From: Enterococcus phage nattely
Direction: 5' to 3' (one strand)
Sequence record: MT119360.1
Length of the DNA stretch: 64,000 nt
The notes below the pieces were generated by a model that saw only the letters and a list, made by a program, of their open reading frames with translations, had not been told where the DNA came from and searched no databases. The position numbers and the translations under genes were made by a program. This document shows, one piece after another, positions 9,346-36,186 of the stretch (within the stretch, counting starts at the first letter, position 1; the number at the start of each line of letters is the position of its first letter).

Positions 9346-9558
9346 ATGACAGAAAAGATGATTAATTGCGAATATGATGATAAATTTTTCATTAATAAAA
9401 GTATAAATTTAGGTGGAGAATATGTTGCTCAATTTCAAATGACAGAAAGTGATGGAAATTGTTATGTCGATCAAGTTAGCCTTAATAAGGAAGCATGTAT
9501 TGATTTAGTTAAATTTTTAAAAAAGGAAATGGAGATAAAAGATGAAGAATTGGTATGA
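9346..9558 (+). CDS. Hypothetical protein
   Basis: ORF with RBS AAGGGAAA. Confidence 0.5.
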   Translation: MTEKMINCEYDDKFFINKSINLGGEYVAQFQMTESDGNCYVDQVSLNKEACIDLVKFLKKEMEIKDEELV

Positions 9559-9952
9559 GGAAAATGATATTTTAATGTCTATTGAAAATAGTCAGAAATA
9601 TATTGTCGCAAAAGCTCCAGATGATGATAATAAATTTTATAAATTAATTCCTTTTAATAGTCGATCTGATTTGAGCAATAAAGAGATTATGCGTTCACAA
9701 TTGAAGATCATTGTTTTACCTAGAGTAGTCCATGGAGAAATGATCATGATTGGTAAAAATGATGATTATTGTCGTATCATTCCGGATCCTCTTAAAGTAA
9801 TTAATGAAAATGGTAAATTCATTCAATTGTCTGTAGATAGAGAAGTCCATGGAAAAATCGAAATAAAAATTGGAAAAGAACGTATCCATTTAGACGAAAA
9901 AGAACTCAATGATTTAATTGATGAAATTGAGGAAATAAAAAAATATCTATAA
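9542..9952 (+). CDS. Hypothetical protein
   Basis: ORF with RBS GGAGATAAAAG. Confidence 0.5.
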   Translation: MKNWYEENDILMSIENSQKYIVAKAPDDDNKFYKLIPFNSRSDLSNKEIMRSQLKIIVLPRVVHGEMIMIGKNDDYCRIIPDPLKVINENGKFIQLSVDREVHGKIEIKIGKERIHLDEKELNDLIDEIEEIKKYL

Positions 9953-9973
9953 AAAGTATTTTAATAAAATAGA

Positions 9974-10010
9974 CCATGGAGTTTACAAATATCCTCAAAT
10001 TTGATATAAT
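9974..10010 (+). promoter_or_regulatory. Promoter with CCATGGAG abutting the -35: CCATGGAG-TTTACA(9982-9987)-N17-TATAAT(10005-10010)
   Basis: Read directly. Same arrangement as at 11434-11472. Confidence 0.55.
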
Positions 10011-10048
10011 ATAAAAATAAACAATAGAAAGAAGAGATGTGTAAAATA

Positions 10049-10597
10049 ATGAATGTAGCAGTTTTTATGGGTTCAAGATTTGGAAAAAATAAAATGCACA
10101 AAATTAATGCTAAAAAATTAGGAAAAATTTTAGCATTAAATGATCATATGTTAATTTATGGTGGTTCTGTTTCAGGATTAATGGGAACAGTAGCAAAATC
10201 TGTTAAAAAATATGATGGAAAAGTAACTGGCGTTTATCCAAAAGGCCATTTTGAAGATGAGAAACCACTTTATGATATTGACTTTTTTATTGAAGTTGAC
10301 AATATGGATGATCGTAAGAGAAAATTGATTGATTTAGCGGATGCTTATGTAATTTTACCTGGCGGAACAGGTACACTTGAGGAATTCGCACAATTACTTT
10401 GTGAAATGATGATTAATATAACTCCATGGAGACCAATTTTTATCCTTAATGAAGATGGTTTCTACAATGGATTAGCTTCACAATTATATACTTTTATTCA
10501 CGAAGGCTTTAGTTATGAAAATGAAAAATTAGCTAAAAATATTTTCATTTGTGATACAGTTGATATTTTACAAGAAAAAATTGAGGGATTATCATGA
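10049..10597 (+). CDS. LOG-family protein (nucleotide 5'-monophosphate N-glycosidase/phosphoribohydrolase-like)
   Basis: YGGSVSGLMG ... ILPGGTGTLEE (PGGxGTxxE signature). Confidence 0.65.
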   Translation: MNVAVFMGSRFGKNKMHKINAKKLGKILALNDHMLIYGGSVSGLMGTVAKSVKKYDGKVTGVYPKGHFEDEKPLYDIDFFIEVDNMDDRKRKLIDLADAYVILPGGTGTLEEFAQLLCEMMINITPWRPIFILNEDGFYNGLASQLYTFIHEGFSYENEKLAKNIFICDTVDILQEKIEGLS

Positions 10598-10782
10598 AAC
10601 AAATTTTAAATGATAGAAAAATACATGTTGAAAGATCATTGTCATTTTTAACCAATATCATACAAATTTATAAAAATAAAGATGATAATGAATCAAAAGA
10701 AAAATTTAAAATTGTAAAATCTTTAATTAAATCATATCAAAAAGAATTAAAAGAAATTAATAGAAAACTGGAGGAAGATTAA
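10594..10782 (+). CDS. Hypothetical protein
   Basis: ORF overlapping the upstream stop by 4 nt. Confidence 0.4.
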   Translation: MKQILNDRKIHVERSLSFLTNIIQIYKNKDDNESKEKFKIVKSLIKSYQKELKEINRKLEED

Positions 10783-10783
10783 G

Positions 10784-11416
10784 TTGACATTATTAGAAAA
10801 AGGTCAAAAAGTTTTTGTAAAAAATAGTTTTAATGGTGGTAAAGAGAAAATTGGTCAAATTGTAGAAATTGATGATCAAGATTCAGAAATGCCATATTTT
10901 GTGCAATATAATGATGGAACAAAATATTGGGAATATGTAGACGAAGTTGAATTATACGATCCACGGCGGAACGTGTATTTAGCCGGACCATTCTTCAGCG
11001 AAAATCAAATTAATATTGTTAATGAACTCCATGGAGCATTAAATGAAAACAAAACTATTAAAAGTGTTTTTGTTCCAATGGAACACCAAATGAATGACGG
11101 AGAATTAGAAGAATTTACAGCTCCTTGGGCTCGAGCAGTTGCAATGAATGATTATGAAAATGTTCGAAATGCAGATATTGTAGTTGCAATTGTCGATTTT
11201 GATGGTCAAGATATGGATAGTGGAACTGCAGCAGAAATTGGATACGCATATGCTATTGGAAAACCAGTTTTCTTGTTTCATAAAGAAAACCACGAAATTA
11301 TGGTTAATTTAATGGTAACAGAGGTTGCTCAAGCATATTTCACAGAATTACAGCAAGTAAAAGATTATAACTTCACTTCTCAGGAAAAAGTTCCTTTCTC
11401 AGGAAATTATCGTTAA
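10784..11416 (+). CDS. Nucleoside 2-deoxyribosyltransferase family protein (NDT / DNPH1-like), with an N-terminal SH3/KOW-like domain
   Basis: YLAGPFF and DSGTAAEIGYAYAIGKPV signatures. TTG start after RBS GGAGGAAG. Confidence 0.6.
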   Translation: MTLLEKGQKVFVKNSFNGGKEKIGQIVEIDDQDSEMPYFVQYNDGTKYWEYVDEVELYDPRRNVYLAGPFFSENQINIVNELHGALNENKTIKSVFVPMEHQMNDGELEEFTAPWARAVAMNDYENVRNADIVVAIVDFDGQDMDSGTAAEIGYAYAIGKPVFLFHKENHEIMVNLMVTEVAQAYFTELQQVKDYNFTSQEKVPFSGNYR

Positions 11417-11433
11417 AAATTAAAAAATATTTG

Positions 11434-11472
11434 CTCCATGGAGTTTACAAAATTCCATGGAGTTGATATAAT
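11434..11472 (+). promoter_or_regulatory. Promoter with two CCATGGAG copies: CTCCATGGAG-TTTACA(11444-11449)-aaatTCCATGGAGttga-TATAAT(11467-11472)
   Basis: Read directly. One palindrome abuts the -35 and a second lies in the spacer. Confidence 0.55.
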
Positions 11473-11506
11473 ATAATTAAATAAATGATTGAAAGAGAGG
11501 AAACTA

Positions 11507-12343
11507 ATGTTGATTACAGCAGCTGGGAAAATTGGAGCTGGAAAAAGTACAATCACTAAATTATTATCAGATGTACTTGAAACAAAAGCAGTATATGAAC
11601 CAATTGAAGAAAATCCACTATTAGAAAAATTTTATGAAGATCGTGGAAAATATGGATTTGTATTTCAAATTGATATGATTAGTCGTCGATTTGAATTAAT
11701 TCAACAAGCACTAATGAAAGATAATTCAGTATTAGATCGTTCTATTTTAGAAGATTCAATTTTTCTTGATCAGTTACATTATGAAGGTTATGTAAATGAT
11801 TTTGAATGGGAAGCATATCATAAATTATTAGATAGAATGATGAAAGAATTAGCGTGTTTACCTAAAAAATTACCAGATTTATTAGTTTATATTGATGTTG
11901 ATTTTGAAACAGAAATTGAACATATTAATAAGCGAGCACGTGAATTTGAAAAAGTAAATAAAGGTGACGAATTATATGAATATTTCAAATTACATTCACA
12001 ATTTTATGATGAATGGATTGAAAATTTTGATTTAACACCTGTTATTAGAATTGATGCAAAACAATATGACTTTGCTAATAATAAAGAAGATCAACAAGAA
12101 GTTTTAGCTCAAATCGTGGCGAAATTAGTTGAAATTCGTGCACTAACATTTAATGAAGCAGTTTTAGCATATTGTAATATTTATGAAGCACAACCAAAAG
12201 ATGTAGCAATTAAATTGTATAATAAAGTGCAAACCCTAATGAATGGCATGCTTGAATACCATAATTTAGCTTTATTATATGATGAAAAATTAGATACAGT
12301 TGAAAAACTGAAAAAACGTATTAAAAACCAAAATAAAAAATAG
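11507..12343 (+). CDS. Deoxynucleoside kinase (dCK/dGK family)
   Basis: P-loop AAGKIGAGKST, YEPIEEN, and DRSILEDSIF (ERS-like) motifs. ATG at 11507 after RBS GAGAGGAAA. Confidence 0.75.
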   Translation: MLITAAGKIGAGKSTITKLLSDVLETKAVYEPIEENPLLEKFYEDRGKYGFVFQIDMISRRFELIQQALMKDNSVLDRSILEDSIFLDQLHYEGYVNDFEWEAYHKLLDRMMKELACLPKKLPDLLVYIDVDFETEIEHINKRAREFEKVNKGDELYEYFKLHSQFYDEWIENFDLTPVIRIDAKQYDFANNKEDQQEVLAQIVAKLVEIRALTFNEAVLAYCNIYEAQPKDVAIKLYNKVQTLMNGMLEYHNLALLYDEKLDTVEKLKKRIKNQNKK

Positions 12344-12364
12344 AAGAAAGTAGGAATTTATTTT

Positions 12365-13120
12365 ATGTTTGCAGCTTTAAAAGGAATTACGAAAAAAGAG
12401 ATTTTAGGAAATATTAAAGAATTATTCACATTACAATATTATAAAGAAGGATTAAGCGGCTGGATGCCAATCACAAAAATTGCATGGTTAATTGGTTTTG
12501 CGATTATCGTTGGTACAGGTGTTCCCCATGGATTCGCAATTACAAATATTATCTCGATTGTTTCAGGATTAATTGGATATACATGTGTTTTAGCAATTAC
12601 TAATGGTAAACGTATTAATGGTTTACTTGGTTTTATTTCAGCAGTTGGTATTGGTGGTATGGCAATTCATGCTGGTAACCCTGCAGATGCTGTTATGCAA
12701 TTAGCATATTTGTTAGCGTTGGATATTCCAGTAATTATCTTTGGTCACCGTTGGACTGCAGCTAAAATCAAAACTTTCGATTTTAATGCTCTAAAAATTA
12801 TTTTAGTAATTGGAATTATTGGTTTTGGATTAATGTACTCAATGGATGCATTTTGGTTACACACTCCACGGCCAATGTTGGATGCATTCGGTGCGACAAT
12901 CGGTTTCATTGGTTCTGGATTAATGTTAGCAAAATATTCAACACAATATTTCTTCTGGAATTTCCAAGGTATTATGAGTTTATTACTATGGGGTGTTACT
13001 GCATACCATGGAGATGCCAACTGGGTATTGTTCGCAACATACGCAATGTATTTAATGAATTCAATGATTGGAGCATTTCATTCTCCATGGGCTGAAGCTC
13101 GTAAAAATAAACATAAATAA
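12365..13120 (+). CDS. pnuC: PnuC-like nucleoside/nicotinamide riboside transporter (7-8 TM)
   Basis: Polytopic membrane protein of about 250 aa. Pattern ISIVSGLIGYTCVLAITNGKRINGL resembles the PnuC core. Lies in the nucleoside-salvage cluster. Confidence 0.45.
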   Translation: MFAALKGITKKEILGNIKELFTLQYYKEGLSGWMPITKIAWLIGFAIIVGTGVPHGFAITNIISIVSGLIGYTCVLAITNGKRINGLLGFISAVGIGGMAIHAGNPADAVMQLAYLLALDIPVIIFGHRWTAAKIKTFDFNALKIILVIGIIGFGLMYSMDAFWLHTPRPMLDAFGATIGFIGSGLMLAKYSTQYFFWNFQGIMSLLLWGVTAYHGDANWVLFATYAMYLMNSMIGAFHSPWAEARKNKHK

Positions 13121-13191
13121 AAAATATAATAATAAGAGAAAAATGTAAAACTCCACGTAATTGTGGAGTTTTTATTGAAAGGAAGAATATT

Positions 13192-13470
13192 ATGGAATTG
13201 AATGAGGGGTTAAGAGACGCGATCGTTTTATTTTTAAATAGTCAAAAATATATTAGTGAAATTGATTTAAATGAAGAAAGAACTGGAGAAAGCGTCATGG
13301 ATGTTATTCATTTTATCAATGGTTTAGGTGATGATGAAGTAGACTTAAGTGAAATGACAACAAATGGTTGGGAATGTGATATTTTTATTCCATTTGAATA
13401 TAATGGAAATAATTTCACGTTATATTTTGAATCTATGTATAATAAAATGAAATTATTTATGGAGGCTTAA
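13192..13470 (+). CDS. Small highly acidic protein (DNA-mimic candidate)
   Basis: About 25% D/E, no motifs. Confidence 0.45.
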   Translation: MELNEGLRDAIVLFLNSQKYISEIDLNEERTGESVMDVIHFINGLGDDEVDLSEMTTNGWECDIFIPFEYNGNNFTLYFESMYNKMKLFMEA

Positions 13471-13473
13471 TAT

Positions 13474-13722
13474 ATGGAAATTAATAGAATCGTGGTTTAT
13501 GGACGCACCAATTGTCCTCAATGTAAAATGACTTGTAAAGTGTTAGAAAAAGAAGGTATTGAATATCGATATATTAACATTGATGAAAATCAACCAGAAA
13601 GATTAAGATTAACACTTTTAGGTTTTCAAACAGTACCAGTTACACGCATTATTTTTGAAAATGGTGAACAAGATCAATATATCACTGGTTTTAGACCAAA
13701 TGAATTGAAAAAATTAAAATAA
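13474..13722 (+). CDS. nrdH: NrdH-like glutaredoxin
   Basis: CPQC redox motif at the N-terminus, thioredoxin-fold length (82 aa), VPV segment. Confidence 0.7.
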   Translation: MEINRIVVYGRTNCPQCKMTCKVLEKEGIEYRYINIDENQPERLRLTLLGFQTVPVTRIIFENGEQDQYITGFRPNELKKLK

Positions 13723-13812
13723 TTAACATGGGGCGTTTACATAACGTCTCTTTTTTGATATAATATAATTATAAAATTATTTCAAGAGAAAAGAAACGTA
13801 GGAGAGATTATA

Positions 13813-14850
13813 ATGGCAGGATACGCAGAAAACACAATGTTTTTTGGTCAAATTGATGGAAAAACATTGAATAGTTTGGGTAAATTAGATAGAAGTGTAA
13901 AAACATTAAAAGACAGATCAAAACAAGTAAATGACATTATTGATTCAACTAATTATTTTGTTGAATATTTATCAAAATATTATAAAGTAAGTATTAATGC
14001 AAATGAAGCAACTAGTGAAGACGTTGATATTTTTAAATATTTAGAAAGAATGGCAACATATTTGTTAAATAGTGATGAATCTATTGCTTTGGATAAAGCT
14101 GAACAAAAAACATATATTTTTCATAATCAAACAATGCAAAAATATTTAGATCGTGAAAAAATTAATGTAAATAACAGTAATGGACAAGAAAATATTGTTG
14201 ACTCCGAAAATGTGGTCCACGCTCTATTAGCAAAAAAACAAAACAGTCGAAAATTAAAAGTTCAAACAATTACAGTTGAGGATTTAAAACGTGACGACAA
14301 AGTTGGCGAAATTTTAAGAGAATATCAATTAATGCTCAATGCCATTGACAAAAAACTTAGTGAACCACAAGATAAAAAATGGGCAATATACACAAGACAA
14401 AAATATTTGGTTAAACAAGATATGGTTGATGCAAAAGATATGTTGCTCGGTGTATGGGGTTACAACACTAATTTTAAAGAATCACATATTCCAGATTTAG
14501 ACATTTTTGATTTTACAGACTTTAAAACAGTTAAATATTTACTAACATTTAATAAGCCAAATGTGTCAGAGAATGAAGACATGTGGTGTGTTTGGCAAGA
14601 CTTTATTGAAACAGTTAAAAAAGCTAATTTAACTCAAGAGGAATTGGAAATTTTTAAGTGTTTACAAGATGGGTGGAAATTACAAGAAATTAGTGATGAG
14701 TTTGGTATTAAATACCATGGACTTTACCAAACAACAATTCCAAGAATCGCTAAAAAGATTATGAAGGTTGGTAACAAATATGATTGTACTGATCCTAAAG
14801 TAAAAGAGAAAATTAATAATCGAAAAGAAAAAGCCAAATCACAAGAGTAG
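13813..14850 (+). CDS. Hypothetical protein with C-terminal sigma-70 region-4-like HTH (possible transcription regulator)
   Basis: The C-terminal LQDGWKLQEISDEFGIKYHGLYQTTIPRIAKKI resembles a sigma region 4 helix-turn-helix. Confidence 0.4.
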   Translation: MAGYAENTMFFGQIDGKTLNSLGKLDRSVKTLKDRSKQVNDIIDSTNYFVEYLSKYYKVSINANEATSEDVDIFKYLERMATYLLNSDESIALDKAEQKTYIFHNQTMQKYLDREKINVNNSNGQENIVDSENVVHALLAKKQNSRKLKVQTITVEDLKRDDKVGEILREYQLMLNAIDKKLSEPQDKKWAIYTRQKYLVKQDMVDAKDMLLGVWGYNTNFKESHIPDLDIFDFTDFKTVKYLLTFNKPNVSENEDMWCVWQDFIETVKKANLTQEELEIFKCLQDGWKLQEISDEFGIKYHGLYQTTIPRIAKKIMKVGNKYDCTDPKVKEKINNRKEKAKSQE

Positions 14851-15764: not shown

Positions 15765-16551
15765 ATCTATTATTAATTTTTTCGAAAGAATTCGGCCTAA
15801 GAATAATCATGAATTAATCATGGAAGCGGAAGTTAACATGATTAATAATAAAATAAGAGAATTAGAAGATGAAATCCAATTAGCTAGTTTTCACTCAAAA
15901 GAACTCAAAGACTCATTTCTTGAATTAAAAAACGATATTGATGGTTTTTCAGAAAAAACCTCAAATAGTGATGTAAATCAAGAGGAAAACGATGATGAAG
16001 AACAATATAAAAGTTTTCCTTCGTTTGAAAGAGGAATTTTGAAAATCTCAATGAATTTGAGTTTAGAATTTATTGACTGCATTAAAAGTGGTTTAACTAA
16101 CTTAAATGGAAAAACCATTTTATATAGTGGAGATATTACAGAAGCAATTTTAAAAAATATCGCACCAAAAGTTGAAGGTTATGATTTATTTAACATAGAG
16201 TTTTTAGACAATGTCTATGAAGGCTCCATGGAGAAAAAAGTTGATTTTTATCTAATTAAAATATTGGATGAATCAATAATTTACGGTGGAGACGTAGAGT
16301 TACAAAGGTATAAAAATTATTTTGGTGGAGTAACTGCAGAAGACATTAAAAAAATATGCAAAATTTTTCGGAGGCATTTAAAAATGATAAAAACAGGTAA
16401 AATTGAAAAAGAAAAAATTGATTTTTCATTGCGTAAAAATGATAAAGGTGAAATTGTGAAAGTGCCTTTAAAAAAGAAAAAAGTTATAAGCCGTCAAGAA
16501 CGAGCTAAAAATAATAAAATTAAAAAAGCTTTGAAAAAACGTAAAAAATAA
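15748..16551 (+). CDS. Hypothetical protein with a lysine-rich basic C-terminal tail
   Basis: ORF. The tail is KKKKVISRQERAKNNKIKKALKKRKK. Confidence 0.45.
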   Translation: MNLMFKSIINFFERIRPKNNHELIMEAEVNMINNKIRELEDEIQLASFHSKELKDSFLELKNDIDGFSEKTSNSDVNQEENDDEEQYKSFPSFERGILKISMNLSLEFIDCIKSGLTNLNGKTILYSGDITEAILKNIAPKVEGYDLFNIEFLDNVYEGSMEKKVDFYLIKILDESIIYGGDVELQRYKNYFGGVTAEDIKKICKIFRRHLKMIKTGKIEKEKIDFSLRKNDKGEIVKVPLKKKKVISRQERAKNNKIKKALKKRKK

Positions 16552-18187: not shown

Positions 18188-18612
18188 TGGATAAAACATT
18201 TTTAGATAATTATAAAGCGGGATTAGAATTATACAAAAGTAGTAGTAAAAAAATTGAAATTTTTGAAAAATATTTAAATAAAGAAAAAAATAAAGATTTA
18301 AAAAAATTATTGAAAAAAGACTTTTCAGATTATGAAGACTATTCAAAATTATTAGAATTAGGCTCCGCAGCTTATGGCAGAATGATGGTTGCTAGAAAAT
18401 TAAGTGAAGCATATCACCAGCAATCAATTGCGTTAAAAATGATCATTTATCCAATTGACGAAGAAATGGTCCGCCATGGAGATGAAGACTTAAAACGTTT
18501 CCGAGAAACTTTATGCGAATCCATTGTGGTCGAATTACAACTCCATGGAGATATTTCCGATAATCGTTTTGTAGAATTAGTAGAAGATGCGATGCGTGAA
18601 AATTTATTATAA
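18187..18612 (+). CDS. Hypothetical protein
   Basis: ORF with TAATG stop/start overlap. Confidence 0.5.
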   Translation: MDKTFLDNYKAGLELYKSSSKKIEIFEKYLNKEKNKDLKKLLKKDFSDYEDYSKLLELGSAAYGRMMVARKLSEAYHQQSIALKMIIYPIDEEMVRHGDEDLKRFRETLCESIVVELQLHGDISDNRFVELVEDAMRENLL

Positions 18613-26293: not shown

Positions 26294-28120
26294 ATGGAAT
26301 TCACAGAGAAAAATTTGTTTAACCCAGGAAAAAATTCGTTTGTTAAGGATGTATTAGAACAAAATGGAGTTAATCCAGAAATGTTTTTAAATGGAAAAAA
26401 TTATGAAGATGAAATCGTAAGTCGTCCAAATTTGTATTTTAACATGTTTAAAGCTGTAAATTTAGTTAATAAACATGTGGCAACTAATTCTTCAATTGGA
26501 ATTTTAGTTGATGATGATGCTGATGGAATGACTTCAGCTTCTGCCATGGCGCGCGTGTTATTTAAGATGGGTCACCATGGAGCTAAATTCATTTTACACG
26601 ATGAGAAAGGACATGGACTCCATGGAGAAGTTGAAAAAATCATTGAACAGAAAATTGATTTTTTAATTGTGCCAGACGCGGGCTCAAATGATTTTGAAGA
26701 TCAAAAATCTGTGTTAGAAGCTGGGATCGACTTATTAATTCTTGATCACCATGATATGGATAATGAAAGACCAATTTTAGAATTGGAAGCATTATATGAT
26801 GGTTATGTATTAGTAAATAATCAATTATCTTATAATATCAAAGGTGTTAATAAAAATTTAGTTGGTGCAGGAATGGTGTATAAATTTGCACAAGCCGCTG
26901 ATGAAGAATTTGAAACAGATAAATTTTCGAAAGATATTGTTGATTTAGTTGCGGTTGGACAAATTGGAGATTCTAGTGACGTGTCCGATCTTGAAGTTCA
27001 ATTAATTGTGCGAGAAGGATTGGATAATTTAAAAAATCCACTATTAGTTGAAGCTTTAAAAAATCGTATTGTAAAAGGTCAAAAAATTGCTCCAATTAAT
27101 ATGTCGTTTGACATTATTCCATATATTAATGCAGTTACGCGTGTTGGTAAAAAAGAAGAGAAAATTGAATTAATAAAAGGATTAATTGGTTTTTGGCCAG
27201 CGGATGAAACTGTAATTATTCAAAAGAGAAGAAAAAATAAATTAACGAAAAAATTCGAAATTCGTGAAGAACCATGGACTCACTATGGAATCTTAATGGA
27301 TAATTTAACAAAAATAAAAGCTCGTCAAAACAAAGAAATTGACAAAGTTCTCAAAAAAATTGAGGATCCTTATAATGAAAACATTGTAATAGCGGCCCTC
27401 AATGAAGATGAGATTGAATATCGGTCCATTACCGGTCTCATTGCTAACAAATTGGTTTCTCAATATAATAAACCGGCTCTTGTATTAATTTCTGAAAATA
27501 ATGGAACGAAATTTAGTGGTTCAGCTCGTGGACATGAAAAAACTGTTTCTTCATTTAGGCAATGGTGTTTAAACACAGAATTATTTGAATTAGCACAAGG
27601 TCACGACAATGCATTTGGTGTTATTATTGATGATTTAAAATTAGAAAAATTAATGGAGAATAGTGCTTTAGAAACTGTAGTAAATGAAGTGACATACGAA
27701 GTTAATAAAATCTATGAAAATGAAACAAACATTGAGGAAATTAAAATGATCAATGATAACGCATGGATTTTTGGTGGCTCCATGGCGGCACCCAAATTCG
27801 GATATAAAAACTTAGTGATTGGACGTAATTGTGTATCACAAAGAGGTTCTGTTGTAACATTCTTCGACCATGGTCTAGAATTTATTATGTATAAACAACC
27901 AGCTGGTTTAGTTGATTCATTTTTAGAAAAAATGGGATTTGAACAAAAATTAGTTGTGAACCTTGTCGGACACGCAAGTAGAAATGAATGGAATGGTAGA
28001 GTAAAAGAACAAGTTGTTTTAGATGATTTTGAAATGATGACATTAGCAGAAAGTGGAATTGAAGATAAGGCACCAACTTTCGATCCTAACTTTGATGACG
28101 ATGGAAATTTAGTTTTTTAA
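26294..28120 (+). CDS. recJ: RecJ-like DHH-family ssDNA exonuclease
   Basis: DHH motifs ILVDDDADGMTS and LILDHHD, plus a DHHA1-like C-terminal region. Confidence 0.55.
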   Translation: MEFTEKNLFNPGKNSFVKDVLEQNGVNPEMFLNGKNYEDEIVSRPNLYFNMFKAVNLVNKHVATNSSIGILVDDDADGMTSASAMARVLFKMGHHGAKFILHDEKGHGLHGEVEKIIEQKIDFLIVPDAGSNDFEDQKSVLEAGIDLLILDHHDMDNERPILELEALYDGYVLVNNQLSYNIKGVNKNLVGAGMVYKFAQAADEEFETDKFSKDIVDLVAVGQIGDSSDVSDLEVQLIVREGLDNLKNPLLVEALKNRIVKGQKIAPINMSFDIIPYINAVTRVGKKEEKIELIKGLIGFWPADETVIIQKRRKNKLTKKFEIREEPWTHYGILMDNLTKIKARQNKEIDKVLKKIEDPYNENIVIAALNEDEIEYRSITGLIANKLVSQYNKPALVLISENNGTKFSGSARGHEKTVSSFRQWCLNTELFELAQGHDNAFGVIIDDLKLEKLMENSALETVVNEVTYEVNKIYENETNIEEIKMINDNAWIFGGSMAAPKFGYKNLVIGRNCVSQRGSVVTFFDHGLEFIMYKQPAGLVDSFLEKMGFEQKLVVNLVGHASRNEWNGRVKEQVVLDDFEMMTLAESGIEDKAPTFDPNFDDDGNLVF

Positions 28121-30551: not shown

Positions 30552-30622
30552 ACCGATAGGTTTACATTTTCACTATTTATTGATATAATATATTTATAAA
30601 ATAAATTAAATTGGAGGTATTT

Positions 30623-31138
30623 ATGAATTTAGTTATTGAGGGTCCTAAAGCAAGTGGAAAAAGCACAATTTCTCACCACTTTATTGAAAAATATTTAACG
30701 ACATATGACCATATGAGCTCCGATAGCGATAACTCATTAAAAGGACATTTAAATTTATTAAAAGGCAAAAAAGGTGAATCATTAAATCATGTAATAGATC
30801 GTTTTTCAGTTGGGGAAATGATTTATCCTAATTTATATGGCCGTGAAGGAAAATTAAATTTAGATGAGTTTAATGTCACAATGAGTTCAGAAAACACATT
30901 ATACGTTATTCTTTATTCTTCGTCTGATCAATTATTATTTGATCGAATTGAATGGAGAGGAAGAAACACTGATGATGAAGATCATGATTTAGTGTCAAAA
31001 TCAAATTTTGCATTTAAAATGATTGGTGAATCATTGAAATATCGTGAAAATGTATTATTATTTGATGTTGCAAAAGTAGGATTAAAAGAAATTATTAAAA
31101 TAATTGAAGATAAATTGGAGGAGTTAAACAGATGTTAA
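30623..31138 (+). CDS. Thymidylate-kinase-like dNMP kinase (candidate hm-dCMP/dTMP kinase)
   Basis: P-loop VIEGPKASGKST. DRF motif (VIDRFSVGEMIYPNLYG) corresponds to the TMPK DRY/DRF motif. RBS GGAGG. 7-nt overlap with the next gene. Confidence 0.5.
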   Translation: MNLVIEGPKASGKSTISHHFIEKYLTTYDHMSSDSDNSLKGHLNLLKGKKGESLNHVIDRFSVGEMIYPNLYGREGKLNLDEFNVTMSSENTLYVILYSSSDQLLFDRIEWRGRNTDDEDHDLVSKSNFAFKMIGESLKYRENVLLFDVAKVGLKEIIKIIEDKLEELNRC

Positions 31139-31977
31139 AATTTAAAAATGTAAATGATGCATGGATTCATTTGGCAAAAAATGTCGTTTATAAAGGTGAT
31201 GTTGTTGGAAATACAAAAGAATTAACAAATGTATCATTCCAAATTGAAAATCCATTAGATAACATTGTAAAAAGCCGTCACAATTTTTCATTAACATATT
31301 ATTTAGGTGAAACTGTATGGTATGGTGCTGGTAAAGACGATGTTGAATTTATTAGTAAATTTGGCCGTATTTGGAATCATTTAACAGATAATGGAATTTA
31401 TAACAATAGTGCTTATGGTTATATCTTAAAAAATAAGCATGGTTTTGACCAAATCGAAAAAGCAATTGAATTATTACGTGGAGATCAATATAGCCGACGA
31501 GCAGTGTTAAATATTAATATTCCACGGCGTGATGTTATTGAAACAAAAGATGAAATGTGCACAATTGCATTACAGTTTTTAATTCGCGATGGAAAATTAA
31601 ATATGACTGGAATTATGCGTTCAAATGATTTATGGACTGGTACTCCATATGATATTTTTTATTTCACAACATTACAACGATATGTTGCATATAAATTAAA
31701 TATTGATATGGGAACATATACGCATTTTGCAACTTCTTTACATTGTTATTTACGTGATGAAGAAAAATTAATTAAATCTTTTGAAAATGATGCAAATAAT
31801 ATTTATGCTGGTATCGATATTAATGGAATGCGTTTATTATTACAAGCTGAAGAATTATATTATACAACACGTAAAGAAGAAAATGCAAAATTAGAATTAG
31901 TTAAATTATGTAAAGAACGTAATATTATTAAAGGAAAAGAAGTTGAAAAAACTATTGAAAAACTATCTGCTATTTAG
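31132..31977 (+). CDS. Deoxycytidylate 5-hydroxymethyltransferase (ThyA family; T4 gp42-like)
   Basis: ThyA-fold motifs SRRAVL, DEMCTIALQFLIRDGKLN and IMRSNDLWTGTPYDIF. MCT, LIRD and MRSND match T4 dCMP hydroxymethylase rather than ThyA. Asp in GTPYD replaces the ThyA Asn of the PFNI motif that dictates uracil specificity. Confidence 0.65.
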   Translation: MLKFKNVNDAWIHLAKNVVYKGDVVGNTKELTNVSFQIENPLDNIVKSRHNFSLTYYLGETVWYGAGKDDVEFISKFGRIWNHLTDNGIYNNSAYGYILKNKHGFDQIEKAIELLRGDQYSRRAVLNINIPRRDVIETKDEMCTIALQFLIRDGKLNMTGIMRSNDLWTGTPYDIFYFTTLQRYVAYKLNIDMGTYTHFATSLHCYLRDEEKLIKSFENDANNIYAGIDINGMRLLLQAEELYYTTRKEENAKLELVKLCKERNIIKGKEVEKTIEKLSAI

Positions 31978-32005
31978 CAGATAGTTTGTATAAAGGAGAA
32001 GAGTT

Positions 32006-32422
32006 ATGAAAATTAAAATTAATATGTTTAGTGATGAAGAAATTTATCAACCAAAAAGAGCACATTATAATGACGCAGGAGCCGATGTTCGCTCAACAGA
32101 AGAAATGTTAATTTGGCCAGGAGAAACTCGAAAAATTCCACTAGGTTTTGGATTAGAATTACCAGATGGATATATGGGAGTTATGATGAGTCGTTCAGGA
32201 TTAGCTTCAAAAGGATTAGTTTCACAAAATGCACCGGTTGATTCTGGATATAAAGGTCAAGTTCACGCAATTATGACAAATGTATCAGATGAAGTTATTA
32301 AAATTGAAAAATATGATAGAATCGCACAATTAGTAATTATTCCAGTTATGGTTGCAGATTTTGTCACAGAAACAGGTAGTGAAAGAACCAGTGATGGTTT
32401 TGGAAGTACAGGTTTAAAATAG
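32006..32422 (+). CDS. dut: Trimeric dUTPase-family dNTP pyrophosphatase (dUTPase and/or dCTPase)
   Basis: All five dUTPase motifs are present: AGADV, SRSGLA, PVDSGYKGQV, RIAQL and RTSDGFGSTG. Confidence 0.8.
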   Translation: MKIKINMFSDEEIYQPKRAHYNDAGADVRSTEEMLIWPGETRKIPLGFGLELPDGYMGVMMSRSGLASKGLVSQNAPVDSGYKGQVHAIMTNVSDEVIKIEKYDRIAQLVIIPVMVADFVTETGSERTSDGFGSTGLK

Positions 32423-32431
32423 GAGGATTAT

Positions 32432-33490
32432 ATGGAAATTTTATTATTGAATGTCGCAAATAACATTACGGATTTTCGAACAGTATCAAGTGGGGAAACA
32501 GTTTATCTAAAACAAATGTTAGAACAGTTAGGCCATGGAGTTACAATTGCTTCAAATAAGAATGGTGAATATGCGGTTGCATTTGAGGAAATTGAGGATA
32601 TTAACAATTTTGACAAAGTAGTTGTTTTACCTGCTTCACTGAACTTTTTCGGTGGTGTAGAAAACCCGACAATTATTAAAAATTATAAATTATTAGCAAA
32701 ATATAATGGAACTATTAATATTTTGCAAACTGACGCACGTTTGCCATTTAAGCAGTTGTGGCCAGCAATTGAGAAGCGGGGATGGGGATATAAAAAAGAA
32801 GAAGTTTGGATTAATGCCCCAATTAAAGTAATTGCACAATCAAAAAATTTAGATGAAGTTAAAACACAATATGAAAAAGAAATTTTCAATAACATTGAGT
32901 TTACACATTTTCCAATTGAGCGTTATGCTGGCATTGTGGCGCTAATGAATCCAATTGATGAAGTCGAAGAAAAAGAACATGATTTAGTTTATTATGGTTC
33001 ATTCCGTGGAGGCAATCGTGCTGCTAAAATGGCAGAATTTTTATGTGGAAACATTGTAGAAAAATTAGATGTCCACGTATTTGGAACAATTCGAGAAAAA
33101 CAATTAGCTAAAAGTAGCGATGGTCCATTTCCTTCGTTTGGTAAAAAGATGAAAATGAATGAAATTAGACAAGAGGTTAGCAAAAGTTTCTCAACTTTAA
33201 TTATTGGTGAAAAATTTTATAATAATGCAATGTTGACAGTGAGGGTTTGGGAAACATTAAGTAGCGACGCAGTAGTTCTCATTGACAACGATTTTGACTC
33301 TTACCATAATTTATTTCCTAATTCGCCATGGCGGTATGTTGAAAAAGAAGAAGATCTTATCGAAGTAGTAAAATCTCTTAAAGATGATGAAAATAAGAGA
33401 AAATTAGCGATTCAAGAGCAAAAAGAAGTGTTAGAAAAAATGATTGATTCTTCTCAATGGTTAAGAGATTTTGAAAATATTTTAGCTTAA
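32432..33490 (+). CDS. bgt: DNA beta-glucosyltransferase (T4 BGT homologue)
   Basis: Collinear similarity over about 350 aa to T4 beta-glucosyltransferase as recalled: MEILLLNVANNITDFRTVSSGETVYL, NFFGG, DARLPFKQLWP, APIKVIAQSKNLD, EFTHFPIERY, YYGSFRGGNRAAKMAEFL, VFGTIREKQL, LIIGEKFYNNAMLTVRVWETLSSDAVVLIDNDFD. Same length (352 vs 351 aa). Confidence 0.7.
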   Translation: MEILLLNVANNITDFRTVSSGETVYLKQMLEQLGHGVTIASNKNGEYAVAFEEIEDINNFDKVVVLPASLNFFGGVENPTIIKNYKLLAKYNGTINILQTDARLPFKQLWPAIEKRGWGYKKEEVWINAPIKVIAQSKNLDEVKTQYEKEIFNNIEFTHFPIERYAGIVALMNPIDEVEEKEHDLVYYGSFRGGNRAAKMAEFLCGNIVEKLDVHVFGTIREKQLAKSSDGPFPSFGKKMKMNEIRQEVSKSFSTLIIGEKFYNNAMLTVRVWETLSSDAVVLIDNDFDSYHNLFPNSPWRYVEKEEDLIEVVKSLKDDENKRKLAIQEQKEVLEKMIDSSQWLRDFENILA

Positions 33491-34086: not shown

Positions 34087-35045
34087 TATATTATGGAGAG
34101 CCATATTTTGAACTATTTTCATATGAGGCGACTGATAAAGCAAGAAATGACACTTGTAAAATATTAAACTCCATGGGGTATTCACCTTTAAAATTATCTT
34201 GTTTTTCAGACGTGAACATTGAGAAAGCTGATGAAGAATTAGCTAACATTGAGGAAAATGACATAATTCTCTTACAATATCCAACTTACAGTGGAGCAGA
34301 TTATGAAAAGAGATTAATTGAAATTTCTCATAAGAAAAAAGCAAAAATCTGTGCAATTGTTCACGACTTAGAATCAATAAGATTCTATGGAAATGATAGT
34401 GACATTGAGATTTTGAATGGTTTCGATATTATATCTCTTCCCTCCATGGAGATGTATAAAAAACTCTTAAAACAAGGACTAAAAACAAAAGTAAAGATAC
34501 AGTTAATTTGGGATTTTCTCGCCATGGATAATCAACAATGGTATGATACAAATTCGGACATTGTCTTTGCTGGAAATTTAACAATGGAAAAGAGTAAATG
34601 GATAATGGATGTAGATTTTCCTATGTTGGTGTATGGCGACAATATAAATAATTTAATTTTTAATGATGATGTAAAATATTGTGGTAAAAAGAATGATTTG
34701 GAATTAGTAAAAGAAATTGGTGGACAAATTGGATTATTATGGGAAGAAGGATTATATAAAGATTATTTAAAATATAATTTATCGTTTAAGCCTTCTTTAT
34801 ATCTTGCAGCAAATTGTCCGATTATTGTTCCAGAAAAAACCCATATTGGAAATATTGTAAAAACATACAAAATAGGCGTAACTGTTAAAGATATTAAAAG
34901 ACAAACAATGTTGGATGCTGTTATTAAATTAAAAGATAATTTAAACTTTTATCAAGAACGTGTTTCAACATTTGGAGAAACAATTAGAAATGGGCAAAAT
35001 ATGAAAACGTTAGTTGAAAGTATGGTGAGAGAAATTGAAAATTGA
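34083..35045 (+). CDS. Hypothetical protein (320 aa) adjacent to the glucosyltransferase; candidate second sugar-transferase
   Basis: No recognisable motif. Position within the modification module only. Confidence 0.4.
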   Translation: MIYYGEPYFELFSYEATDKARNDTCKILNSMGYSPLKLSCFSDVNIEKADEELANIEENDIILLQYPTYSGADYEKRLIEISHKKKAKICAIVHDLESIRFYGNDSDIEILNGFDIISLPSMEMYKKLLKQGLKTKVKIQLIWDFLAMDNQQWYDTNSDIVFAGNLTMEKSKWIMDVDFPMLVYGDNINNLIFNDDVKYCGKKNDLELVKEIGGQIGLLWEEGLYKDYLKYNLSFKPSLYLAANCPIIVPEKTHIGNIVKTYKIGVTVKDIKRQTMLDAVIKLKDNLNFYQERVSTFGETIRNGQNMKTLVESMVREIEN

Positions 35046-35577: not shown

Positions 35578-36186
35578 ATGGCAAAATTTACATTTATGTA
35601 TGGAACTATGAAAAGCGGAAAAAGTATGGAGTTAATTAAAACTTATACAAATTATTTAGTAAAAGATCAAAAACCATTGGTGTTAAAAAGTGCAATTGAT
35701 ACACGTGACTCCAATACAGTTGCTACACGACTAGGCTCTGCAATTACATGTCAGCTATTAGGACAAAATCAAAATATTGCAGATTTTTTACAACAAGATG
35801 GTCGTAATAATCCTCCTGTTATTTTGATTGATGAAGCACAATTTTTAACAAAATCACAAGTTATCGAATGTGGTGTTCTAGTTGATACGCAAAATATTGA
35901 TGTAATATGCTTTGGTTTGAAAACTGATTTTACTAATCATTTATTCGAAGGAAGTAAAGCTTTAATTGAAGAAGCTGATAAATTAGTGGAAATTAAAACA
36001 TTATGCGCTTTTTGTAATAAAAAAGCAACCCATAATTTATTAACTGAATTAAGAGAAGATGGTTATCGTTATGCTGTTGATTCAGAAAATGTTGATGGAA
36101 ATATTGTGATTGGTGATGAAGACTTTTTCCAATGCTGCAGAAAACATTATTATTTTTATGGAACTCAAACAAGGAAAGTGCAATAA
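35578..36186 (+). CDS. tdk: Thymidine kinase (TK1 type)
   Basis: GTMKSGKSMEL P-loop, ILIDEAQFL, and C-terminal zinc ribbon CAFCNKK...CC. RBS AAAGGAGAA. Confidence 0.8.
   Translation: MAKFTFMYGTMKSGKSMELIKTYTNYLVKDQKPLVLKSAIDTRDSNTVATRLGSAITCQLLGQNQNIADFLQQDGRNNPPVILIDEAQFLTKSQVIECGVLVDTQNIDVICFGLKTDFTNHLFEGSKALIEEADKLVEIKTLCAFCNKKATHNLLTELREDGYRYAVDSENVDGNIVIGDEDFFQCCRKHYYFYGTQTRKVQ

What the first reader, a model, noticed from the sequence alone, without database searches (positions are those of the whole stretch)
10049..13722. Nucleoside salvage/editing cluster: LOG-like, SH3-fused deoxyribosyltransferase-like, dNK, PnuC-like transporter, NrdH
Five consecutive genes form a module that could import nucleosides (PnuC-like), phosphorylate them (dNK) and exchange or cleave bases. 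The LOG-family and NDT/DNPH1-family proteins are both N-glycosidases acting on nucleoside monophosphates. The NDT-like protein carries an unusual N-terminal SH3/KOW-like extension. In a phage that apparently replaces dC with hm-dC, N-glycosidases of this type are candidates for destroying canonical dCMP/dNMP pools or recycling host DNA breakdown products. This would be a different solution from the T4 dCTPase/dCMP deaminase route. Both promoters in this cluster (9974-10010 and 11434-11472) carry CCATGGAG abutting the -35.
Basis: partly seen in the sequence, partly recalled or inferred. Interest (0 to 1): 0.65.

Follow-up and report, generated by a model that had tools for sequence, protein, structure and literature searches.

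The report
Phage deoxynucleoside salvage gene cluster
This Enterococcus phage carries an early-gene cluster for importing, base-swapping and phosphorylating deoxynucleosides; close relatives carry the same genes with the same public annotations, and it looks like ordinary Lactobacillus-type salvage, not a new way to exclude cytosine from DNA.

Summary
All five family assignments hold: LOG (10049-10597), SH3/Tudor-like domain fused to a nucleoside 2-deoxyribosyltransferase (NDT, 10784-11416), deoxynucleoside kinase (11507-12343), PnuC-like transporter (12365-13120) and NrdH-like redoxin (13474-13722). Two small unknown ORFs lie between them.

The window is a Vipetofemvirus-type Enterococcus phage, 98.5% identical to vB_EfaS_140 and 92% to VPE25. 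The same genes are already annotated in VPE25, VFW, vipetofem and 9183.

The hmC-specific reading is not supported:
- The NDT keeps every residue of true nucleoside transferases, including the Asp/Asn that bind the 5'-OH. It is not DNPH1/MilB-like.
- The LOG keeps the Arg/Glu that bind ribose 2'/3'-OH, so it should act on ribonucleotides.
- dCMP is the precursor of hm-dCMP, not a contaminant to destroy.
- The phage has its own block of kinase-like protein, dCMP-type hydroxymethylase, dUTPase-family protein and beta-glucosyltransferase at 30.6-33.5 kb.

The best reading is a salvage module typical of Lactobacillales. Analogous modules recur in other phages of these hosts that mostly lack the hydroxymethylase. 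Bacterial homologues of the transporter sit behind NrdR-box-like sites and next to dNK or nrdF.

Modestly new points are the constant LOG-NDT pairing, the SH3/Tudor fusion, and CCATGGAG abutting the -35 of only these two of 32 promoters.

The parts
9974..10010 (+). Promoter P1: CCATGGAG (9974-9981) directly abutting TTTACA (-35, 9982), a 17-nt spacer, then an extended -10 TGATATAAT. It drives LOG, orf62 and NDT.
   Evidence: The motif position is conserved in VPE25.
10049..10597 (+). LOG-family (TIGR00730) nucleotide 5'-monophosphate phosphoribohydrolase, 182 aa. It keeps GGSxxGLMG, the Glu and RK ribose-binding residues, and PGGTGTLEE.
   Evidence: The best solved relative is B. subtilis YvdD (1T35), 2e-28.
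10594..10782 (+). orf62, a small lysine-rich ORF of unknown function. It is absent between LOG and NDT in more distant relatives.
   Evidence: no family match; absent in L005, L007 and phage 9183.
10784..10960 (+). N-terminal SH3/Tudor-like five-stranded beta-barrel domain (aa 1-59) of the NDT fusion protein.
   Evidence: weak DUF1918 hit; pLDDT about 90, strands 9-12, 22-29, 38-42, 47-50, 55-57; Foldseek TM 0.77-0.85 to Tudor and PsaE domains.
10961..11416 (+). Nucleoside 2-deoxyribosyltransferase domain (aa 60-210). It has Y65, Q102, D123, D143/D145, E151 (nucleophile) and N175, and a conserved C-terminal GNYR.
11436..11472 (+). Promoter P2: CCATGGAG abutting TTTACA (11444), a 17-nt spacer holding a second CCATGGAG (11455-11462), then TGATATAAT. 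It drives dNK and PnuC-like.
11507..12343 (+). Deoxynucleoside kinase (278 aa). It has a P-loop (GAGKST), YEP, a DRS motif, a KRAREFE lid, and a C-terminal extension of about 70 aa that it shares with Enterococcus phage EFDG1.
   Evidence: 52% identity to the EFDG1 dNK.
12365..13120 (+). PnuC-like (Pnu family) membrane facilitator of the paralogue type that is linked to dNK and NrdR. It is the predicted deoxynucleoside importer.
13147..13177 (+). Terminator-like hairpin (ACTCCAC...GTGGAGT followed by a T run) after the PnuC-like gene.
13192..13470 (+). orf92, function unknown. It is conserved in L007, replaced by an HNH endonuclease gene in L005, and absent in phage 9183.
13474..13722 (+). NrdH-like glutaredoxin (82 aa) with a CPQC active site and a TGFRP motif. 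No phage ribonucleotide reductase accompanies it.
13730..13764 (+). Terminator-like hairpin overlapping the next promoter (TTTACA at 13736). This promoter drives the sigma-like gene and lacks CCATGGAG.
30611..33490 (+). Context, not part of the cluster: the phage's own cytosine-modification block. It holds a P-loop NMP-kinase-like gene (30611-31138), a dCMP-type hydroxymethylase (31132-31977), a dUTPase-family gene (32006-32422) and a T4-type beta-glucosyltransferase (32432-33490).

Best explanation
This is an early-expressed deoxynucleoside salvage module of the kind native to Lactobacillales, carried by the phage to enlarge and rebalance the dNTP supply for its 71% A+T genome.

Proposed flow (every step is inferred unless marked shown):
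1. The PnuC-like facilitator lets deoxynucleosides into the cell.
2. The deoxynucleoside kinase phosphorylates and so traps them. A separate TK1-type thymidine kinase at 35578-36186 handles dT/dU.
3. The NDT moves the deoxyribosyl group between bases through a covalent Glu151 intermediate. Whatever deoxynucleoside is available can then become the one that is needed.
4. The LOG enzyme, which is always encoded next to the NDT, hydrolyses ribonucleoside 5'-monophosphates to ribose-5-phosphate plus free base. That free base is the acceptor the NDT needs.
5. The NrdH-like redoxin has no phage reductase partner. It most likely feeds electrons to the host class Ib ribonucleotide reductase.

dCMP made this way would feed, not bypass, the phage's separate dCMP hydroxymethylase and glucosyltransferase route.

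Shown here: family membership, retained catalytic and specificity residues, operon architecture, and conserved synteny. Inferred: the transported substrate, the kinase's base specificity, LOG as base supplier, the redoxin's partner, and the role of the SH3/Tudor domain (possibly oligomerisation or docking to a partner).
For: **Families and residues**
- All family calls are confirmed.
- All six L. leichmannii NDT active-site residues are conserved: Y7, Q46, D72, D92, E98, N123. The fold matches PDT/NDT at E 4e-12 to 1e-7, against DNPH1 at 9e-6 and BcmB at 2e-4.
- The LOG keeps PGGxGTxxE and the ribose-binding Glu and Arg (PMC4979012; bioRxiv 10.1101/2025.04.13.648610).

**Operon structure**
- Two consensus promoters and two terminator-like hairpins delimit the operons.
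- VPE25 early genes include the nucleotide-metabolism genes (PMC7064774).

**Synteny**
- LOG-NDT-dNK-PnuC-(x)-Grx is kept at about 60% identity in phage 9183 and in metagenomic relatives.
- It is rearranged to dNK-PnuC-LOG-NDT in L012.
- A LOG-NDT-dNK triad without the SH3 domain occurs in L039.
- EFDG1 has NrdD-dNK-PnuC-like-NrdH. Lactobacillus phage ATCC 8014-B2 has PnuC-like, a thioredoxin-domain gene and NDT within about 2 kb, with two small ORFs between the first two.
- An unrelated phage contig has TK-dNK-NDT with a NupC-type nucleoside transporter in the equivalent place.

**Transporter**
- It is 40% identical to the dNK-linked EFDG1 paralogue. It shows no similarity to EFDG1's second PnuC, which sits next to an NMN adenylyltransferase gene.
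- Among 23 Lactobacillaceae homologues, 5 are directly followed by dNK.
- 13 of the 23 have NrdR-box-like palindromes upstream, often in tandem 30 bp apart. 20 of 37 hits fall in 3.9% of the sequence scanned.
- One locus reads nrdF-nrdF-box-PnuC-like-dNK.

**Distribution**
- The 41 phage records with an NDT almost all infect Lactobacillales. This follows host taxonomy, not cytosine modification.
Against: - No enzyme or transport assay exists for any of these proteins.
- Deoxynucleoside transport by the PnuC-like clade rests only on genomic association.
- LOG enzymes often prefer N6-modified AMP, so a general role as base supplier is unproven.
- The phage could reuse host-DNA dNMPs directly without an NDT. 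The benefit of the module therefore depends on nucleoside availability.
- The function of the SH3/Tudor domain is unknown.
- The CCATGGAG element at exactly these two promoters hints at regulation that this model does not explain.
Confidence: 0.6

Rival explanations
1. One reading: LOG and the NDT-like protein are nucleotide N-glycosidases. They destroy canonical dCMP/dNMP pools, or discriminate canonical from hydroxymethylated nucleotides, and so replace the T4 dCTPase route.
For: The phage lineage has modified cytosine (PMC4999554). NDT-superfamily hydrolases of this kind exist: MilB acts on hmCMP (PMC4081090) and DNPH1 on dNMPs. A phage NDT-family enzyme, DmtZ, removes dAMP in Z-genome phages (PMC12884076).
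Against: - The NDT keeps Asp143/145 and Asn175, the 5'-OH binders that the hydrolases lack (PMC12884076).
- Sequence and fold rank true transferases far above DNPH1, MilB and BcmB.
- The LOG keeps its ribose 2'/3'-OH binders.
- dCMP is the hydroxymethylase's substrate, so destroying it would be counterproductive.
- Two dUTPase-family genes are present, one beside the hydroxymethylase.
- Similar modules occur in phages that do not match this hydroxymethylase.
Confidence: 0.08
2. Same biochemistry, different selective purpose. The module exists mainly as a counter-defence, refilling dNTP pools when host systems that deplete nucleotides are triggered (dCTP deaminase, dGTPase and similar).
For: It is compatible with early expression and with the conserved import, exchange and phosphorylation logic. 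It is not distinguishable from plain salvage by sequence.
Against: No component matches any PADLOC defence or counter-defence model. The distribution follows Lactobacillales hosts, where this salvage chemistry is native.
Confidence: 0.15
3. A ribonucleotide route to the modified base: CMP to hmCMP by the MilA-like enzyme, hmCMP to free 5hmC by LOG (playing the part of MilB), 5hmC to hm-dC by NDT, and hm-dC to hm-dCMP by dNK.
For: The phage thymidylate-synthase homologue is closest to MilA, a CMP 5-hydroxymethylase, at 9e-26. T4 dCMP hydroxymethylase scores only 4e-8. NDTs are known to accept many modified bases (background knowledge).
Against: The two residues that make MilA prefer ribose, Lys133 and Ala176, are Arg122 and Ser164 in the phage enzyme. 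That is the deoxy-type state, equivalent to the MilA A176S/K133R mutant that prefers dCMP (PMC5175136). A kinase-like gene and a dUTPase-family gene flank the hydroxymethylase, as in a dCMP route.
Confidence: 0.04
4. NAD+ salvage: the PnuC-like protein imports nicotinamide riboside, the kinase phosphorylates it, and LOG/NDT act on pyridine nucleotides.
For: Pfam and NCBIfam name the transporter family after nicotinamide riboside and NMN transport, and the score passes the TIGR01528 cut-off. Public records label it the same way.
Against: - The kinase is a full-length dNK (5.7e-40).
- No NadR, NMNAT or Nampt homologue is found in the window or in the complete vipetofem genome.
- The transporter groups with the dNK/NrdH-linked paralogue of EFDG1, not with the one beside the NMN adenylyltransferase gene.
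- Bacterial homologues sit behind NrdR-box-like sites and next to dNK or nrdF.
Confidence: 0.04

Closest known systems
Lactobacillus-type deoxynucleoside salvage: nucleoside 2-deoxyribosyltransferases (L. leichmannii NDT 1F8X, L. helveticus PDT 1S2D, B. psychrosaccharolyticus NDT 6EVS) together with deoxynucleoside kinases
   Same: The NDT catalytic and specificity residues and the fold are the same. The dNK family and its motifs are the same. The logic is the same: exchange the base, then phosphorylate.
   Different: The module is phage-encoded. The NDT carries an N-terminal SH3/Tudor-like domain and a conserved C-terminal GNYR. It is always paired with a LOG gene. It is packaged with a Pnu-family transporter and an orphan NrdH-like redoxin.
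The same cluster as publicly annotated in Enterococcus phages VPE25, VFW, vipetofem, vB_EfaS_140 and 9183 (Andrewesvirinae)
   Same: These are orthologous genes in the same order, at 92-98.5% DNA identity (Vipetofemvirus) or about 60% amino-acid identity (Denvervirus). They are already labelled lysine decarboxylase family, purine trans deoxyribosylase, deoxyadenosine/deoxyguanosine kinase, NrdR-regulated PnuC-like transporter and NrdH-like glutaredoxin.
   Different: Nothing structural differs. The papers read here contain no functional study of the cluster.
The dNK, PnuC-like and NrdH triad of Enterococcus phage EFDG1 (Schiekvirus); the dNK (gp051) and PnuC-like (gp052) genes of the record that VPE25 Table S2A cites as best hit (YP_0014690xx, which I take from memory to be Lactococcus phage KSY1)
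   Same: The dNK is 52% identical and the PnuC-like protein 40% identical, in the same gene order, followed by the redoxin. The VPE25 supplement lists gp051 and gp052 as best hits at 68% and 54% identity.
   Different: EFDG1 places the triad next to its own anaerobic reductase gene nrdD, and it lacks the LOG and NDT genes. The phage studied here has no reductase gene.
NDT-superfamily nucleotide hydrolases and transferases: DNPH1/Rcl, MilB/BcmB, and phage DmtZ
   Same: The same superfamily fold and the same Tyr/Asp/Glu catalytic triad.
   Different: Those enzymes have a 5'-phosphate pocket without the Asp/Asn pair. The phage protein keeps that pair, and its sequence and structural similarity to them is marginal.
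LOG/PpnN nucleotide 5'-monophosphate nucleosidases (B. subtilis YvdD 1T35, C. glutamicum LOG, P. aeruginosa PA4923, E. coli PpnN)
   Same: The PGGxGTxxE motif and the Arg/Glu ribose binders are the same. It has the single-domain size of type-I LOGs.
   Different: It is phage-borne, which is rare: only 20 of 50,697 phage records have a homologue. It is fixed next to an NDT gene. It scores far below the cytokinin-LOG equivalog cut-off (78 against 300 bits).

Membership tests
LOG / TIGR00730 (PF03641) phosphoribohydrolases | The profile score is above the curated cut-offs. | tested here: met
   PF03641 scores 96.8 bits against 27. TIGR00730 scores 125 bits against 96.35. The cytokinin-LOG equivalog NF058542 scores 78 against 300, which is not met, so it is not filed as a cytokinin-specific LOG.
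LOG / TIGR00730 (PF03641) phosphoribohydrolases | The PGGxGTxxE motif with its catalytic Glu, plus the conserved Arg and Glu that hold ribose 2'/3'-OH. | tested here: met
   PGGTGTLEE, the RK of MDDRKRK and the Glu of IEV all align with YvdD (1T35). The residue roles come from PMC4979012 and bioRxiv 10.1101/2025.04.13.648610.
LOG / TIGR00730 (PF03641) phosphoribohydrolases | Hydrolysis of a nucleoside 5'-monophosphate to free base plus ribose-5-phosphate. | not testable with these tools
   This needs an enzyme assay.
Nucleoside 2-deoxyribosyltransferase (PF05014), transferase branch | The profile score is above the cut-off, and the closest solved relatives are true transferases. | tested here: met
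   PF05014 scores 86.1 bits against 28.8. 6EVS scores 2e-20, 1F8X 1.5e-11 and 1S2D 2.1e-11. The top 35 Foldseek hits are all transferases or transferase-family structures.
Nucleoside 2-deoxyribosyltransferase (PF05014), transferase branch | The catalytic Glu nucleophile with Tyr and Asp (L. leichmannii Y7, D72, E98) and the base-binding Gln46. | tested here: met
   Y65, D123, E151 and Q102 align with them. Y65, D123, D145 and E151 are invariant across 47 homologues.
Nucleoside 2-deoxyribosyltransferase (PF05014), transferase branch | The Asp and Asn that bind the 5'-OH (D92, N123). These separate nucleoside transferases from nucleotide hydrolases. | tested here: met
   D143/D145 and N175 are present. 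The criterion is stated in PMC12884076.
DNPH1 / MilB-type (deoxy)nucleotide N-glycosidases | A 5'-phosphate pocket with uncharged small residues in place of the Asp/Asn pair, and closest similarity to DNPH1, MilB or BcmB. | tested here: not met
   The Asp/Asn pair is retained. MilB and BlsM score only E about 0.004. DNPH1 scores 9e-6 at 18% identity, ranked after 35 transferase-family structures.
Deoxynucleoside kinase (PF01712) | A full-length profile match, with the P-loop, the Glu-Pro and DRS motifs, and an Arg-rich lid. | tested here: met
   137.7 bits against 27, covering 1-202 of 203 profile positions. GAGKST, YEP, DRS and KRAREFE are visible in the alignments to 8PUU and 2JAS. Base specificity was not determined.
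Pnu transporter family (PF04973 / TIGR01528) | The profile score is above the cut-off. | tested here: met
   PF04973 scores 70.9 against 27.3. TIGR01528 scores 71 against 42.45. The match to PnuC 4QTN is weak, 3.4e-06.
Pnu transporter family: nicotinamide riboside-specific PnuC | Genomic coupling to NadR or NMN adenylyltransferase (NAD salvage). | tested here: not met
   No NadR-like gene is found in the window or in vipetofem. There is no similarity to EFDG1's PnuC paralogue that lies next to its NMN adenylyltransferase gene.
Pnu transporter family: predicted deoxynucleoside clade (the 'NrdR-regulated PnuC-like' annotation) | Coupling to dNK or nrd genes, and NrdR boxes upstream in bacterial homologues. 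| tested here: met
   5 of 23 bacterial loci have an adjacent dNK. 13 of 23 have NrdR-box-like palindromes upstream, often in tandem 30 bp apart. One locus reads nrdF-nrdF-box-PnuC-like-dNK. The transported substrate itself cannot be tested with these tools.
NrdH redoxin (TIGR02194) | The curated score cut-off, the CVQC-type active site and the WSGFRP motif. | tested here: inconclusive
   It scores 69.8 bits, below the cut-off of 85.75. It has CPQC and TGFRP. It passes glutaredoxin PF00462 at 47.4 against 22.9. It is therefore filed only as NrdH-like.
NrdH redoxin (TIGR02194) | A cognate class Ib ribonucleotide reductase (NrdEF) as partner. | tested here: not met
   tblastn finds no NrdD or NrdF homologue in the window or in the complete vipetofem genome. 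Any partner would have to be the host enzyme.

The most novel reading that the evidence does not exclude
The LOG and SH3/Tudor-NDT pair, which are always adjacent, form a dedicated base-swap shunt. LOG strips bases from the abundant ribonucleotide pool. The NDT loads those bases onto salvaged deoxyribose, retuning the deoxynucleoside pool to the phage's A+T-rich, cytosine-modified genome. The SH3/Tudor domain docks the enzyme to a phage nucleotide-synthesis or replication complex. The CCATGGAG element found at only these two promoters co-regulates the two operons.
Probability: 0.2. Interest if true: 0.5.

Novelty: new member of a known kind. Interest (0 to 1): 0.3.

Why it matters
If the salvage reading is right, large lytic phages of lactic acid bacteria carry the host clade's own deoxynucleoside economy (import, base exchange, phosphorylation) as a portable early-gene cassette. 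That would bear on phage fitness in nucleoside-rich habitats such as gut, sewage and cheese, and on therapeutic use of VPE25-like phages. It also gives a tractable system for testing the long-predicted, never demonstrated deoxynucleoside specificity of the NrdR-linked PnuC-like transporters. The constant LOG-NDT pairing suggests a physiological role for bacterial-type LOG enzymes as suppliers of free bases. It does not appear to reveal a new way of excluding canonical cytosine from DNA.

Tried and rejected
1. **DNPH1/MilB-type hydrolase reading of the NDT.** Rejected on the residue, sequence and fold tests.
2. **Ribonucleotide route to 5hmC through the MilA-like enzyme.** Tested by mapping MilA Lys133, Ala176 and Asp186 onto the phage enzyme. 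It has Arg, Ser and Asp, the deoxy-cytosine signature. Rejected.
3. **NAD salvage.** There are no NadR, NMNAT or second-PnuC homologues, and the transporter belongs to the other paralogue type. Rejected.
4. **Defence or counter-defence families.** The PADLOC scan gave only sub-threshold noise.
5. **NrdR boxes inside the phage cluster.** None were found in 9500-14000, so there is no sign that host NrdR controls the phage genes.
6. **Whole-library search with the 61-aa N-terminal domain.** It returned only repeat-domain proteins (Tudor, DUF1918, SH3-like, plus WW and beta-propeller noise). It gave no informative fusion partner.
8. **Expression values in VPE25 Table S2A.** The values for orf_15 to orf_21 were found, but they are normalised scores shown without column headers. 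Only the paper's general statement on early genes is used.

Full report
**Identity of the window.** The region 9500-14000 is 98.5% identical to Enterococcus phage vB_EfaS_140. It is about 92% identical to VPE25, VFW, vipetofem and vB_EfKM29, which are Andrewesvirinae of the genus Vipetofemvirus with genomes of about 86 kb. The window has 28.9% G+C, and nearly all genes up to about 58 kb lie on the + strand.

**The observation.**
- LOG, 10049-10597: PF03641 1.5e-27, and TIGR00730 above its curated cut-off.
- NDT fusion, 10784-11416: PF05014 2.5e-24.
- Deoxynucleoside kinase: PF01712 5.7e-40. The likely start is ATG 11507, as annotated in relatives, not the TTG at 11489.
- PnuC-like transporter, 12365-13120: PF04973 1.7e-19.
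- Glutaredoxin-fold protein, 13474-13722: closest to NrdH but below the TIGR02194 cut-off.

Two small ORFs with no family match, orf62 and orf92, also lie in the interval. The same genes carry essentially the same names in the public records of VPE25, vB_EfaS_140, vipetofem and 9183, and in a supplementary table of a VPE25 paper. At the annotation level the cluster is therefore not new.

**The NDT-like protein.** Its closest solved relatives are genuine nucleoside 2-deoxyribosyltransferases: B. psychrosaccharolyticus NDT 6EVS at 2e-20, then L. leichmannii NDT and L. helveticus PDT at about 1e-11. MilB, BlsM and BcmB appear only at E about 0.004.
- Mapping the L. leichmannii active site onto the phage protein shows all six residues conserved: Y7/Y65, Q46/Q102, D72/D123, D92/D143-145, E98/E151 and N123/N175. 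The catalytic ones are invariant across 47 homologues.
- The Asp/Asn pair binds the 5'-OH in transferases. It is replaced by small uncharged residues in the nucleotide hydrolases, as stated for the phage enzyme DmtZ in PMC12884076.
- An AlphaFold2 model (pLDDT 90, pTM 0.84) matches PDT/NDT structures at E 4e-12 to 1e-7. DNPH1 matches only at 9e-6 with 18% identity.

The protein therefore passes the transferase membership tests and fails the DNPH1/MilB one.

**The N-terminal extension.**
- Residues 1-59 form a confident five-stranded barrel. Its nearest structural neighbours are Tudor domains (PHF1, PHF19) and the SH3-like PsaE, at TM 0.77-0.85 but E no better than 2e-3.
- Pfam gives a weak DUF1918 hit.
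- A full-library search found only Tudor, DUF1918 and SH3-like repeat proteins plus noise.
- The fusion is present in about 36 protein clusters, on contigs of up to about 88 kb (many are short fragments). In those clusters the domain's sequence diverges while the NDT domain and a C-terminal GNYR stay conserved. In the curated phage collection only the ten Andrewesvirinae records have it.

The domain's function is unknown.

**The LOG protein.** It is about 40% identical to B. subtilis YvdD (1T35, 2e-28). It keeps GGSxxGLMG, the conserved Glu and Arg-Lys, and PGGTGTLEE. In characterised LOG and PpnN enzymes the Arg and Glu hold the ribose 2'- and 3'-hydroxyls, and the motif Glu activates water (PMC4979012; bioRxiv 10.1101/2025.04.13.648610). 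That predicts ribonucleoside monophosphate substrates. LOG homologues are rare in phages: 20 of 50,697 records, mostly this lineage.

**Kinase, transporter and redoxin.**
- The kinase shows the dNK motifs and is 52% identical to the EFDG1 kinase.
- The transporter is 40% identical to the EFDG1 PnuC-like gene that lies between that kinase and an NrdH-like gene, beside nrdD. It has no detectable similarity to EFDG1's second PnuC, which lies next to an NMN adenylyltransferase gene.
- A scan of one genome per bacterial species found 23 homologues at 33-41% identity: 22 in Lactobacillaceae and one in the bifidobacterium Alloscardovia.
  - Five are directly followed by a dNK.
  - Thirteen have NrdR-box-like palindromes in the 400 nt upstream, often two boxes 30 bp apart. 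20 of 37 hits fall in 3.9% of the scanned sequence.
  - In Nicoliella the arrangement is nrdF-nrdF-box-PnuC-like-dNK.
- This supports, but does not prove, the existing "NrdR-regulated deoxyribonucleotide transporter" label.
- The redoxin has CPQC and TGFRP. Neither the window nor the complete vipetofem genome has an NrdD or NrdF homologue. Its partner, if it is a reductase, must be the host's.

**Synteny.**
- The order LOG-NDT-dNK-PnuC-(orf92 or HNH)-Grx-sigma-like is kept in relatives whose NDT is only 60-67% identical, and in Denvervirus 9183.
- In another contig of about 81 kb the order is dNK-PnuC-LOG-NDT.
- An unverified Listeria-phage contig has LOG-NDT-dNK with no SH3 domain.
- Lactobacillus phage ATCC 8014-B2 has PnuC-like, a thioredoxin-domain gene and NDT within about 2 kb, with two small ORFs between the first two.
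- An unrelated phage contig has TK-dNK-NDT followed by a NupC-type nucleoside transporter. That is a non-orthologous transporter in the equivalent place.
- LOG-NDT and dNK-PnuC are thus two stable pairs that travel together.

**Transcription signals.**
- Three 11-of-12 consensus promoters with an extended -10 lie at 9982, 11444 and 13736.
- Terminator-like hairpins follow the PnuC-like and NrdH-like genes.
- VPE25 transcriptomics places nucleotide-metabolism genes among the 78 early genes (PMC7064774).

**Relation to cytosine modification.**
- VPE25 and VFW DNA resist bisulfite conversion and are partly cut by PvuRts1I (PMC4999554).
- The window encodes a contiguous block: a P-loop kinase-like protein, a thymidylate-synthase homologue, a dUTPase-family protein and a T4-type beta-glucosyltransferase (30611-33490). 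It also encodes a second dUTPase-family protein, a TK1 thymidine kinase and a guanylate-kinase-like protein.
- The thymidylate-synthase homologue is closest to MilA, a CMP hydroxymethylase (9e-26). But it has Arg122 and Ser164 where MilA's ribose preference needs Lys133 and Ala176, and Asp174 at the cytosine-specifying position (PMC5175136). It carries the dCMP signature.
- The phage therefore has the parts for a route from dCTP/dCDP through dCMP to modified dCMP, and dCMP is that route's substrate. A dCMP-destroying glycosidase would work against it.
- NDT genes in phages follow host taxonomy: 41 records, nearly all from Lactobacillales hosts. Of those listed, only Lactobacillus phage ATCCB, outside this lineage, also matches this hydroxymethylase.
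- One caveat: some MilA-like phage enzymes make 5-hydroxy-dCMP and not 5-hydroxymethyl-dCMP (PMC13326640). The exact modification in this lineage has not been chemically defined.

**Conclusion.** The cluster is best read as a deoxynucleoside salvage cassette built from import, base exchange and phosphorylation. LOG probably supplies free bases from ribonucleotides, and an orphan NrdH-like redoxin probably supports the host reductase. NAD salvage and a ribonucleotide route to 5hmC were tested and are unlikely. What remains mildly novel is the invariant LOG-NDT pairing, the SH3/Tudor fusion, and the shared CCATGGAG element at the two cluster promoters.

Noticed in passing
window 733-34451 (35 copies; for example 733-742, 10422-10431, 11027-11036, 11434-11443, 16224-16233, 18541-18550, 26618-26627, 34442-34451): CCATGGAG, often as the 10-bp palindrome CTCCATGGAG, is the most over-represented 8-mer in the window: 35 copies against 0.47 expected. 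Every copy lies in the first 34.5 kb. Most are inside genes and in different reading frames, so the signal is at the DNA level. VPE25 has 28 copies in its first 26 kb. Vipetofem has 41 copies in its early-gene half and 1 in its structural half. Many positions are shared between the window and VPE25. The motif is absent from Denvervirus 9183, the more distant metagenomic relatives and EFDG1. It remains unexplained; it could be a protein-binding, nicking or recombination site.
   Followed up: partly
window 9974-10010 and 11436-11472: The + strand of the window has 32 strict TTTACA-N16-18-TATAAT promoters. Only the two that drive the salvage cluster have CCATGGAG directly abutting the -35. The two share the 16-mer CCATGGAGTTTACAAA. 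This suggests either common regulation or duplication of one promoter.
   Followed up: partly
window 31132-31977: The thymidylate-synthase homologue is closer to the antibiotic-pathway CMP hydroxymethylase MilA (9e-26) than to T4 dCMP hydroxymethylase (4e-8). It nevertheless carries the deoxy-type Arg122 and Ser164 and the cytosine-type Asp174. Some MilA-like phage enzymes make 5-hydroxy-dCMP (PMC13326640), so the exact base modification in this lineage still needs chemical proof.
   Followed up: partly
window 32006-32422 and 43889-44611: There are two dUTPase-family genes. One lies directly after the hydroxymethylase. The other is 240 aa long and has an N-terminal extension of about 100 residues. 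One of them may serve as the dCTPase of the modification pathway.
   Followed up: no
window 13813-14850: The gene immediately downstream of the cluster matches a phage sigma-factor family (phrog_5767, 6.9e-45) but no Pfam family. It has its own consensus promoter at 13736, overlapping the terminator-like hairpin of the NrdH-like gene.
   Followed up: no
L010 (Enterococcus phage EFDG1) 5989-6747 and 9910-10653: EFDG1 carries two unrelated Pnu-family transporters. One lies between a dNK and an NrdH-like gene, beside nrdD. The other lies next to an NMN adenylyltransferase gene. This is a natural pair for testing deoxynucleoside against nicotinamide riboside specificity.
   Followed up: partly
L037 2306-5920 (metagenomic phage contig): An unrelated phage carries TK-dNK-orf-NDT-gp49-like followed by a NupC-type concentrative nucleoside transporter, with a NAMPT gene nearby. 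It is an analogous salvage module with a different class of transporter.
   Followed up: no
L013 5001-7046 (bacterial contig): A bacterial LOG homologue, 38% identical to the phage LOG, is directly followed by a xanthine/uracil-family nucleobase permease gene. This fits a role for LOG enzymes in free-base metabolism.
   Followed up: no
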